In this document: positions 1,097 to 1,392 of the stretch, one piece after another
Numbering within the stretch: the stretch's first letter is position 1
How the letters are laid out: each line of letters starts with the position of its first letter
Assembly: GCA_030668875.1 (NCBI GenBank)
Contig: DAOVER010000081.1
Span: forward strand, 1-9,054
Direction: 5' to 3'
Source: Candidatus Heimdallarchaeota archaeon
Lineage (GTDB): Archaea; Asgardarchaeota; Heimdallarchaeia; Heimdallarchaeales; Heimdallarchaeaceae
DNA: 9,054 nt
Program-made: the position numbers and the translations under genes
Notes under the pieces: generated by a model
Told to the model about the DNA's origin: nothing
Databases searched by the model: none
The model's input: the letters and a program-made list of their open reading frames with translations, nothing else

Positions 1097-1275
1097 CTAT
1101 CTTAAATGGAACGCATTTAGAAATGAAAGGGAGCATATTTGATTTTACTATCCTGCTTGAAGAAGTAACGGAATCATCTTTCACATTAACACTATTTACA
1201 TCACTAATTTTGTTTACAATTGTTCATCTTATTAGAAGAAAAAGGAAGAAGAATTTCTCCTTCATCATTCAATAA
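1078..1275 (+). pseudogene. Orphan 3' fragment of a C-terminally membrane-anchored surface protein, truncated by the IS
   Basis: Open frame NASTIFTILNGTHLEMKGSIFDFTILLEEVTESSFTLTLFTSLILFTIVHLIRRKRKKNFSFIIQ* with two N-glycosylation sequons (NAS, NGT), a hydrophobic helix and a basic tail. Same tail architecture as the 8311-terminating protein. It begins right at the inferred IS end. Confidence 0.6.
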
Positions 1276-1392
1276 GTCTATAACATGAATTTTATATGAA
1301 TTCTTTAGAAGTGCCTAGGTACATTATGGGGACGCCACATCCCCTCCTACACCGCCCACATCTTCTTGTAAAGATGCTTACGGTTCGCTTTT
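1273..1392 (-). ncRNA. Second, stand-alone omegaRNA-like scaffold / IS right-end homologue with no tnpB ORF
   Basis: The reverse complement of 1327-1392 aligns without gaps to 912-977 (42/66 identical), and all stem differences preserve pairing. Downstream motifs acctag, tctaa and atagac are shared with 1035-1072. The residual frame KSEP*ASLQEDVGGVGGDVASP* matches the TnpB tail KSDPKALSKRSANGVGGYVMYP but has stops. Confidence 0.8.

What the first reader, a model, noticed from the sequence alone, without database searches (positions are those of the whole stretch)
1273..1392. Stand-alone, protein-less TnpB omegaRNA homologue on the opposite strand, with strong covariation
Seen: the reverse complement of 1327-1392 (aaaagcgaaccgtaagcatctttacaagaagatgtgggcggtgtaggaggggatgtggcgtcccca) aligns without gaps to tnpB 912-977 at only 42/66 identity, yet all three stems are kept. 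These are tccg/cggg>accg/cggt, gcactat/gtagtgc>gcatctt/aagatgt and ggatac/gtatcc>ggggat/gtcccc: six double compensatory changes, three wobble-consistent single changes and none disruptive. The tagg/ccta helix and the subterminal tcta...tagac hairpin are also kept, while the 982-1020 hairpin of copy 1 is absent. The G.U pairs work on the minus strand only. The TnpB frame has stops and no RuvC-III (NADVN) coding upstream. Established: TnpB uses an RNA overlapping its 3' end and right end, with the guide taken from the flank. Inference: this is a divergent, minimised omegaRNA or non-autonomous IS derivative that could load a TnpB in trans with a different guide (about ttgaatgatgaaggagaaat, 1272 to 1253). 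The pair also gives a natural structure alignment for this scaffold family.
Basis: partly seen in the sequence, partly recalled or inferred. Interest (0 to 1): 0.85.

Follow-up and report, generated by a model that had tools for sequence, protein, structure and literature searches.

The report
Protein-less mobile element carrying TnpB guide-RNA scaffold
The flagged stretch is one copy of a roughly 235-base jumping element of Heimdall (Asgard) archaea that encodes no protein but has its own promoter and a folded RNA related to the guide RNA of the neighbouring TnpB nucleases; this kind of element is already described, so it is a well-documented new example, not a new principle.

Summary
The reverse complement of 1327-1392 matches tnpB 912-977 at 42/66 without gaps, and all three stems are kept by six double and three single changes. 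Across 83 scaffolds the stems pair in 95% of cells, with far more double changes than shuffles give.

The feature is larger than flagged. It is a protein-less element at 1279-1516 (minus strand). It has a left end like that of resident tnpB elements, an archaeal TATA-like box, a private 55-nt structured 5' domain, the 65-nt omegaRNA-like core, a shortened tail and a sharp right end.

At least 45 copies lie in 13 of 23 sister genomes and in a second genus. None is joined to tnpB. Four sister species have an empty site at exactly this position, after TTATA.

Most likely it is a PATE-like non-autonomous element that supplies a guide RNA in trans to a resident TnpB. Expression and TnpB loading are not shown.

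The guide should start at 1278, not 1272. No Y1 TnpA was found in 24 genomes, so what moves the element is unknown.

PATEs that encode omegaRNAs are already in the literature (Meers 2023). This scan found the same family earlier in another Heimdall genome.

The parts
1279..1516 (-). Whole protein-less element including the TTATA target motif. The inserted segment itself is 1279-1511 or 1280-1512, 233 nt; the register is ambiguous because A/TTATA recurs at both junctions.
   Evidence: 32 aligned copies have the same ends and unrelated flanks. Orthologous empty sites in G021, G016, G010 and G002 join window ~1277 to ~1512.
1511..1516 (-). TTATAA: target/TAM-like motif at the left boundary. The empty sites carry a single TTATA.
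   Evidence: About 85% mean identity among copies. The same TTAT(G/A)A lies at the left boundary of both full-length tnpB families. Empty sites.
1489..1506 (-). Left-end T-rich motif around GTAC (family consensus TTTTTGTACATTTTTTTGG). Presumed transposase-binding end; it is an imperfect inverted repeat of the right end.
   Evidence: 0.91 mean pairwise identity. Left end against the reverse complement of the right end matches 21/33, shuffles 14.4 +/- 1.6. It resembles the left end of C59-type tnpB elements.
1479..1487 (-). Archaeal TATA-like box (family TTTAAATA/TTTATATA; this copy TTCATATA), about 19 nt before the point where conservation resumes.
   Evidence: Conserved box followed by a variable spacer (0.62 identity). 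The homologous box lies 19 nt before the tnpB ATG in full-length elements. Promoter function is inferred.
1405..1459 (-). Element-specific 5' RNA domain: a long helix enclosing a hairpin. Transcription is predicted to start near 1457-1459.
   Evidence: Helices 1-2 pair in 96-99% of cells, with 8+8+2 and 2 double changes. No relative was found in any full-length tnpB element or elsewhere in the genome.
1328..1392 (-). OmegaRNA-like core: three stems and the invariant GTAGGAGG. It is homologous to tnpB 912-977 and to the 3' ends of about 26 other tnpB copies in this genome.
   Evidence: Covariance model R1 scores it 87 bits, as high as tnpB-linked copies.
1304..1327 (-). Shortened tail: a small covarying hairpin (GTGC...GCAC in the family; weakened in this copy) and the TCTAAAG motif shared with tnpB-linked scaffolds.
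   Evidence: Helix 5 has 4+4 double changes. Alignment with full-length tails.
1279..1303 (-). Right end: near-palindrome GAATT(T/C)-N5-AAATTC and terminal CATGT(C>T)ATA. This copy has T where 31 of 32 copies have C.
   Evidence: 0.955 mean identity, the highest of any segment. Flanks diverge immediately after it.
1259..1278 (-). Predicted guide (flank-derived), GACTTATTGAATGATGAAGG.
   Evidence: Inferred from the right-end boundary and the established rule that the TnpB guide is the sequence just beyond the right end.
1238..1263 (-). Flank hairpin and T5 run that could end a minus-strand transcript about 40 nt beyond the right end.
   Evidence: Terminator-like hit at 1263-1245. It is host flank, so it is specific to this copy; weak evidence.
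1..1078 (+). Comparator: tnpB element 'copy 1'. It is cut by the contig start and frameshifted near 739-741. Its omegaRNA core is 912-977 and its right end is at 1077/1078. Its guide would start at 1078/1079, pointing towards the small element 200 bp away.
   Evidence: Pfam OrfB_IS605 and Cas12f1-like TNB. Other copies are in frame. Homology to sister species starts at ~1076-1079.

Best explanation
Window 1279-1516 (minus strand) is one copy of a ~235-nt non-autonomous mobile element. It is PATE-like and belongs to the tnpB-only (IS1341-type) branch of IS200/IS605 elements that populate this Heimdallarchaeota genome.

Shown:
- It encodes no protein.
- It has sharp, conserved ends.
- It sits 3' of a TTATA motif without target duplication, as the resident tnpB elements do.
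- It is present in many copies at unrelated sites, and it is absent from the orthologous site in four sister species.
- Its 65-nt core is homologous to the omegaRNA core at the 3' end of resident tnpB genes. The core keeps the same three stems through compensatory changes although it no longer codes for anything.

Inferred:
- The conserved TATA-like box inherited from the tnpB left end drives a ~180-nt minus-strand RNA: 5' domain, core, short tail.
- That RNA runs across the right end into the flank and acquires a ~20-nt guide (1278 downwards).
- A TnpB made by a full-length element binds this RNA in trans. Intact reading frames exist in the genome; the C59/C7 type is slightly closer in scaffold and left end.
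- If the element is excised, the TnpB-RNA complex cuts the restored TTATA + guide site. Repair from the sister chromosome then puts the element back, which is the Meers et al. 2023 retention model.
- A transposase supplied in trans moves it. That transposase was not identified.
For: Homology and covariation with tnpB-linked scaffolds:
- Searches give the figures in the observation check.
- Model R1 finds 32 cores in this genome; six are protein-less.

Family behaviour:
- At least 45 hits lie in 13 of 23 sister genomes and none in 17 genomes of other families of the order.
- Hits occur in 18 of 29 genomes of the family, including a second genus, and in 0 of ~370 other Asgard genomes.
- The ends are identical and the flanks unrelated.

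Mobility:
- There are six empty sites in this genome for copies found elsewhere.
- There are four empty orthologous sites for this copy.

Segmental constraint:
- Stems, the TATA box and the ends have 0.82-0.96 identity.
- Spacers and loops have 0.46-0.66 identity.

Shared motifs:
- The left end and TATA box are homologous to those of C59-type tnpB elements.
- The TTAT(A/G) target and TCAT terminus are the same as in both tnpB families.

Partner availability:
- Intact tnpB frames of 417-426 codons are present.
- All 14 genomes with the element also carry C59-type elements, against 4 of 10 genomes without it. Kin are not independent, so this is weak evidence.

Concept already published: PMC10055086.
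Against: - There is no expression evidence and no test of TnpB binding.
- The core is only 64-69% identical to either tnpB-linked lineage, which are 77% identical to each other, so no cognate TnpB can be named.
- The 5' half of the RNA has no counterpart in tnpB-encoded omegaRNAs.
- No Y1 TnpA was found in any of 24 genus genomes. The excision step that gives the retention model its purpose is therefore not accounted for.
- Covariation with G.T-compatible changes cannot by itself distinguish an RNA from folded single-stranded DNA.
- This copy has a C-to-T change in the terminal motif and a weakened tail hairpin.
- Single-sequence folding energy is unremarkable.
Confidence: 0.7

Rival explanations
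1. It is a mobile element, but the conserved stems serve transposition at the DNA level. They would be folded single-stranded ends recognised by a transposase, not an RNA used by TnpB. The likeness to the omegaRNA would then be only inherited right-end sequence.
For: IS200/IS605 ends act as folded single strands (established; PMC13565253). The right end is the most conserved segment. G.T pairs are tolerated in DNA hairpins. There is no expression evidence.
Against: The constraint covers about 180 nt in six helices, far more than the ~30-40 nt ends that Y1 transposases use. The conserved TATA-like box and the variable spacer up to the point where conservation resumes fit a transcription unit. 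The same core in tnpB elements belongs to a family for which RNA function is established. No Y1 TnpA was found.
Confidence: 0.12
2. The RNA is made but has been put to a use other than self-retention. It could be a decoy that competes with tnpB-encoded guides for TnpB, or a guide that steers TnpB to host sites for regulation.
For: The element has its own promoter-like box, a private 5' domain and a lineage-specific core. Hybrids swap stems with tnpB-linked scaffolds. TnpB relatives that act as RNA-guided regulators are known from the literature (from memory, not checked here).
Against: The guides are simply whatever flanks each insertion. The element behaves as a multicopy insertion with empty sites. 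Resident TnpB frames keep the NADVN RuvC motif. No conserved target was seen.
Confidence: 0.1
3. It is an inert relic: the 3' stump of a tnpB element left by a deletion, with no activity of its own.
For: Deletion-derived terminal-only remnants of IS605-type elements are common in archaea (PMC3119063). This copy carries a changed terminal motif. A solo right-end stump exists at G000 C3:34120-34183.
Against: Dozens of copies have identical boundaries at unrelated sites in two genera. There are clean empty sites. Compensatory changes and segmental conservation are seen. No copy is next to tnpB remains.
Confidence: 0.03

Closest known systems
PATE-like elements encoding omegaRNAs in Geobacillus stearothermophilus (Meers et al. 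2023, PMC10055086)
   Same: Minimal IS200/IS605-type elements without protein genes. Their ends are like those of resident tnpB/iscB elements. They are said to 'often encode omegaRNAs' that need TnpB from another element in trans.
   Different: This one is archaeal (Heimdallarchaeota). It has an archaeal TATA-type promoter box. Its RNA has a private 5' domain and a shortened tail, so it is not a plain deletion of a resident element. No Y1 TnpA was detectable in 24 genomes, whereas a TnpA was identified and shown to be active in Geobacillus.
Palindrome-associated transposable elements (PATEs) of Haloquadratum walsbyi (Dyall-Smith et al. 2011, PMC3119063)
   Same: [quoted passage not shown] Mobility is seen although intact tnpA is scarce or missing.
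   Different: PATEs are defined as lacking terminal inverted repeats and having palindromes near both ends. Here the termini are imperfect inverted repeats (21/33), and only the right end has a clear palindrome.
TnpB omegaRNA (ISDra2 type; the sotRNAs of archaeal IS1341-type tnpB, PMC4615843, are listed but were not read here)
   Same: A structured scaffold ends exactly at the transposon right end, so that the guide is flank sequence. The core is homologous to that of resident tnpB elements, with covarying stems.
   Different: It does not overlap a tnpB reading frame. Its 5' part is unrelated to the tnpB-encoded RNA. It is driven by the left-end promoter box, not derived from the tnpB transcript.
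Earlier finding of this scan, e1-4808812 (another Heimdall genome)
   Same: The same element family: about 234 nt, its own promoter, a conserved folded RNA, at least ten unrelated sites, suspected stand-alone guide RNA.
   Different: Here the link to TnpB is direct. A tnpB-linked scaffold lies 250 bp away in the same window. Homology and covariation were measured across 83 scaffolds. Empty sites were found for this copy.

Membership tests
TnpB omegaRNA | Scaffold related in sequence and secondary structure to omegaRNAs of tnpB elements | tested here: met
   42/66 identity to the window's tnpB copy. Across 83 scaffolds 95% of cells pair, with 187 double-changed cells against 60 in shuffles. Model R1 scores it 87 bits.
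TnpB omegaRNA | Encoded at the 3' end of, and overlapping, a tnpB gene | tested here: not met
   No tnpB frame or tnpB similarity lies upstream in any copy. An apparent exception (L184/L186) turned out to be the same protein-less element.
TnpB omegaRNA | The scaffold ends at the transposon right end, so the guide comes from flanking DNA | tested here: met
   Conservation stops at ...CATGTCATA in 32 copies. The empty sites place the junction at 1279/1280.
TnpB omegaRNA | Transcribed, bound by TnpB, and directs TAM-dependent DNA cleavage | not testable with these tools
   No RNA run is listed for this DNA. Binding and cleavage need experiments.
PATE (palindrome-associated transposable element) | Too short to encode a transposase; multicopy with insertion polymorphism | tested here: met
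   227-239 nt with no ORF. At least 45 copies in the genus. Empty sites found.
PATE (palindrome-associated transposable element) | No target-site duplication; insertion next to a short target oligonucleotide | tested here: met
   The empty sites carry a single TTATA. The left flank is TTATA and the element ends in TCATA, and the two do not vary together between copies. In this copy both read TTATA, so the register is ambiguous by up to 5 nt.
PATE (palindrome-associated transposable element) | No terminal inverted repeats; palindromes near both termini | tested here: inconclusive
   The left end against the reverse complement of the right end matches 21/33, against 14.4 +/- 1.6 in shuffles. The right end has GAATTT-GTAC-AAATTC; the left end has only TGTACA.
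PATE (palindrome-associated transposable element) | Ends related to resident IS605/IS1341-type transposons | tested here: met
   The left end, TATA box, TTAT(G/A)A boundary and TCAT terminus are shared with C59-type and copy-1-type tnpB elements.
IS200/IS605 peel-and-paste elements | A Y1 (HUH) TnpA available in the genome | tested here: not met
   PF01797 was found in 0 of 24 genus genomes (72-92% complete), and the positive controls rang. Serine-recombinase elements exist, but their ends are unrelated.
MITE | Terminal inverted repeats matching a known transposase-encoding IS, usually with target duplication | tested here: not met
   Inverted-repeat-like termini are present. There is no duplication, and no transposase-encoding element with these ends was found.

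The most novel reading that the evidence does not exclude
The element may be an independently evolving, self-promoted 'guide-RNA gene on wheels'. It has its own 5' domain, a minimised tail, stems swapped with two TnpB-linked scaffold lineages, and no full-length parent anywhere searched. On this reading it parasitises TnpB nucleases in Asgard archaea that have no detectable TnpA. Its spread would then depend on TnpB-made breaks plus homology-directed copying, or on an undescribed transposase that recognises inverted-repeat-like ends, and not on peel-and-paste transposition.
Probability: 0.12. Interest if true: 0.75.

Novelty: new member of a known kind. Interest (0 to 1): 0.45.

Why it matters
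- It gives a large natural alignment of a TnpB guide scaffold freed from coding constraint: dozens of protein-less copies plus two tnpB-linked lineages. This shows which stems and single-stranded motifs (for example the invariant GTAGGAGG) are needed and how far the tail can be trimmed. That is useful for designing short guide RNAs for compact TnpB editors.
- It documents modular exchange between guide scaffolds.
- It extends omegaRNA-bearing protein-less elements to Asgard archaea.
- It sharpens an old puzzle: tnpB-only elements and their miniature derivatives show recent insertions in genomes where no TnpA can be found.

Tried and rejected
- Rfam scans of the window and of locus L074: nothing relevant.
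- Expression: no RNA holder is listed for this DNA. Laying four DNA runs gave only short unitigs and no joint, so it was uninformative.
- Thermodynamic folding of the single sequence: not significant for the full RNA.
- Search for a full-length parent with this tail and right end:
  - None among the genus genomes. Partial hits at contig ends are a k-mer artefact of collapsed repeats.
  - None among the 80 loci of a pattern scan of 185,579 species genomes.
  - None in viral contigs.
  - Two metagenome contigs (L184, L186) looked tnpB-linked by tblastn. They proved to be the same protein-less element carrying copy-1-type stems 1-2.
- Origin of the 5' domain: no similarity to the tnpB 3' coding region or to any part of full-length elements.
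- Two Acetatifactor hits of the pattern scan are GC-rich coding coincidences.
- Y1 TnpA: not found. The resolvase genes are not adjacent to these elements.
- The left-end fragment followed by a 605-aa ORF in G009 is a host TPR gene, not cargo.
- An 18-nt difference just beyond the right end was considered as a possible cleavage scar. It was dropped because the outgroup G002 shares the short form.

Full report
**Setting**

- The window is a whole 9,054-bp contig (C92) of a 3.23-Mb, 34% GC assembly of 99 contigs.
- Record titles of near-identical repeats elsewhere place it among Candidatus Heimdallarchaeota (Asgard archaea) MAGs from marine sediment.
- Positions 1-1016 (+) are a tnpB gene. Pfam finds OrfB_IS605 and the Cas12f1-like TNB domain.
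- The gene is cut by the contig start and frameshifted near 739-741. Other copies are in frame.
- The genome holds about 26 further tnpB 3' ends of two related lineages:
  - 'copy-1 type' (F), with intact frames of 417-426 codons;
  - 'C59/C7 type' (T), about 59% protein identity to the first, with one intact 425-codon frame.

**The observation**

- The reverse complement of 1327-1392 aligns without gaps to 912-977 at 42/66. The local score is 33 against 18.3 +/- 2.3 for shuffles.
- I aligned 83 distinct scaffolds: 30 protein-less, 37 C59-type and 14 copy-1-type, plus one hybrid (L004, G000 C95) and one atypical protein-less copy (L134). For the 17 pairs, 95.0% of cells are standard pairs, against 82.7% in shuffles and 39-54% with slid partners. 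There are 187 double-changed cells against 59.9 +/- 8.8. The covariation score is 0.395 against 0.164, with 0/500 shuffles reaching it.
- Single-sequence folding energy is not remarkable. The case rests on covariation.

**What it is**

- BLAST of the region against the genome found four more copies with no tnpB frame upstream.
- In 40 related genomes the same about 230-nt unit occurs at least 45 times in 13 of 23 genomes of the genus. It is absent from 17 genomes of other families of the order.
- A later search found it in 18 of 29 genomes of the family, including a second genus, and in none of about 370 other Asgard genomes.
- Thirty-two near-complete copies align end to end at 87% mean column identity, with completely unrelated flanks.

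Read on the minus strand, the unit consists of these parts:

| Part | Window coordinates |
|---|---|
| TTATAA boundary motif | 1516-1511 |
| T-rich motif around GTAC | 1506-1489 |
| TATA-like box | 1487-1479 |
| Variable ~19-nt spacer | 1478-1460 |
| Structured 5' domain | 1459-1405 |
| Variable linker | 1404-1393 |
| OmegaRNA-like core | 1392-1328 |
| Small hairpin plus TCTAAAG | 1327-1304 |
| Near-palindrome and terminal CATGTCATA | 1303-1279 |

- Mean pairwise identity is 0.82-0.96 in the boxes, stems and ends. It is 0.46-0.66 in spacers, the linker and loops. All parts share one genealogy, so this pattern indicates segment-specific constraint.
- Within the family, 46 proposed pairs are paired in 97.4% of cells. 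Eleven pairs have double changes, against 4.7 +/- 1.2 in shuffles. Frequent G.U pairs work only on this strand.

**Mobility**

- Six copies present in other species have empty counterparts in this genome.
- For the window's own copy, four sister species (G021, G016, G010, G002) have the flanks joined. Window ~1277 continues into ~1512, with a single TTATA at the joint (TTAAA in G016).
- The inserted DNA is thus 233 nt, placed 3' of TTATA, with no duplication beyond the motif itself.
- The neighbouring tnpB element is likewise absent from those species. Homology to them resumes at 1076-1079, after TTATG or CTATA.
- The two elements are therefore independent, convergent insertions 200 bp apart.
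- Both full-length tnpB families have the same TTAT(G/A)A at their left boundary and end in TCAT.
- The small element's left end and TATA-like box are recognisably those of the C59-type element. There the box lies 19 nt before the tnpB ATG, which suggests a leaderless mRNA.
- By position, the small element's box would start transcription at about 1457-1459, exactly where sequence conservation resumes. That is an inference.

**Relation to tnpB-linked scaffolds**

- A pattern scan of one genome per species (185,579 species) for the invariant core motif returned 100 stretches, of which 80 were listed as loci. Apart from two bacterial Acetatifactor contigs (coding coincidences), they are Heimdallarchaeota-labelled or unnamed archaeal MAG contigs.
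- These fall into two clean classes. Cores followed by the long tail are preceded by a C59-type tnpB. Cores followed by the short tail are never preceded by tnpB.
- The protein-less cores are 69% identical to C59-type and 64% to copy-1-type cores. Those two are 77% identical to each other. The protein-less scaffold is thus a third lineage, and a cognate TnpB cannot be named from sequence.
- All 14 genus genomes with the element also have C59-type elements, against 4 of the 10 without it. This is suggestive only, because the genomes are kin.
- The 5' domain has no detectable relative in any full-length element.
- Hybrids exist:
  - G000 C95 joins the 5' module and P-type stems 1-2 to a copy-1-type stem 3 and long tail.
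  - G008 C85 and two metagenome contigs join the 5' module to copy-1-type stems 1-2 and a P-type stem 3 and tail.
  - G001 C15 has a decayed core with a C59-type tail.
  - G000 C29:61332 is a distant variant with further compensatory changes.
- The scaffold modules have therefore been exchanged between protein-less and tnpB-linked elements.

**Mechanism**

Shown:
- a protein-less, multicopy, recently mobile element;
- it shares target motif, termini and left-end promoter box with resident tnpB elements;
- its core is an omegaRNA homologue maintained by compensatory evolution without coding constraint.

Inferred:
- it is transcribed from its own box into a ~180-nt scaffold plus a flank-derived guide (1278-1259 here);
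- the RNA is loaded in trans into a resident TnpB;
- TnpB then cuts the TTATA-plus-guide donor joint after excision, so that recombination restores the element.

Weak points:
- No RNA data are available.
- No Y1 TnpA was found in any of 24 genus genomes of 72-92% completeness.
- The left end has no hairpin, and the termini read as imperfect inverted repeats. This does not fit the textbook IS200/IS605 picture (PMC13565253).
- Serine-recombinase (IS607-like) elements are present, but their ends are unrelated.
- What moves the element is therefore open. The same puzzle was noted for Haloquadratum (PMC3119063).

**Comparison and novelty**

- The element fits the PATE concept in most respects: no ORF, no duplication, a target oligonucleotide, ends like IS605-type elements, and insertion polymorphism. 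It departs on the 'no inverted repeats, palindromes at both ends' criterion.
- It works like an omegaRNA but is not a member in the strict positional sense, because it does not overlap tnpB.
- OmegaRNA-bearing PATEs are described in the literature. This scan had also already met the same family in another Heimdall genome (e1-4808812).
- I therefore class it as a new member of a known kind, of moderate interest. Its value lies in three things: the natural structure alignment, the evidence for modular scaffold exchange, and the TnpA-less setting in Asgard archaea.

- The extent is 1279-1516.
- The guide starts at 1278.
- The subterminal tcta...tagac hairpin is not a family feature.
- The tagg/ccta helix is unproven.
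- This copy has a T for the otherwise conserved C in the terminal motif.

Noticed in passing
window 1-1078 (+): The tnpB copy is cut by the contig start and carries a 1-nt frameshift near 739-741 relative to in-frame copies elsewhere. It is absent from the orthologous site of G021 and G016, where the flank follows TTATG or CTATA.
   Followed up: partly
L074 (G012:C81:24200-24900), positions 224-539: An orthologous copy of the small element is split inside its stem 1/2 region by a 316-nt insertion that has its own TATA-like box. The last ~90 nt of the insertion match at least 25 sites in G000, several of them just downstream of genes next to serine-recombinase genes (IS607-like). It looks like a second protein-less element family nested in the first. 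It has no Rfam match.
   Followed up: partly
G000 C48:36202-38850; also C15:30734-31481 and C87:1-2376: IS607-like units: a MerR-type serine recombinase (200-219 aa) followed on C48 by a 638-aa ORF, then a GC-rich hairpin end that is repeated genome-wide.
   Followed up: no
24 genomes of the genus: No Y1 (HUH) TnpA was detected anywhere, although tnpB elements number in the tens per genome and show species-specific insertions.
   Followed up: partly
G000 C95:94380-94760; G000 C29:61100-61600; G000 C3:34120-34183: Three variant copies: a hybrid copy with a copy-1-type stem 3 and long tail, a distant variant with further compensatory changes, and a solo right-end stump of about 60 nt.
   Followed up: partly
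L127 and L147 (two contigs of the Heimdallarchaeota MAG CSMAG_2472): Two copies are interrupted at the GTAC of the right-end palindrome by the same foreign sequence (...GAATTTGTAC|CAGTACT...). This suggests another element that targets this palindrome, reminiscent of the SMR-A insertions into Haloquadratum PATEs.
   Followed up: no
L073 (G009:C112), reverse strand ~147-217: A left-end fragment of the element (TTATAA through the TATA-like box to GGATTGTAG) sits about 130 nt upstream of a 605-aa TPR-repeat host gene and may supply its promoter.
   Followed up: partly
window ~1262-1270 (-) compared with G021, G016 and G010: Eight nt beyond the right end, three sister species carry about 18 extra nt that the window and the more distant G002 lack. 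The indel lies inside the would-be guide region.
   Followed up: partly
window 1759-4103 (+) and 4181-5425 (-): Host genes. Three ORFs have DUF2229 and HGD-D domains (2-hydroxyacyl-CoA dehydratase or activase-like). The fourth is a receiver-PAS-histidine kinase.
   Followed up: no
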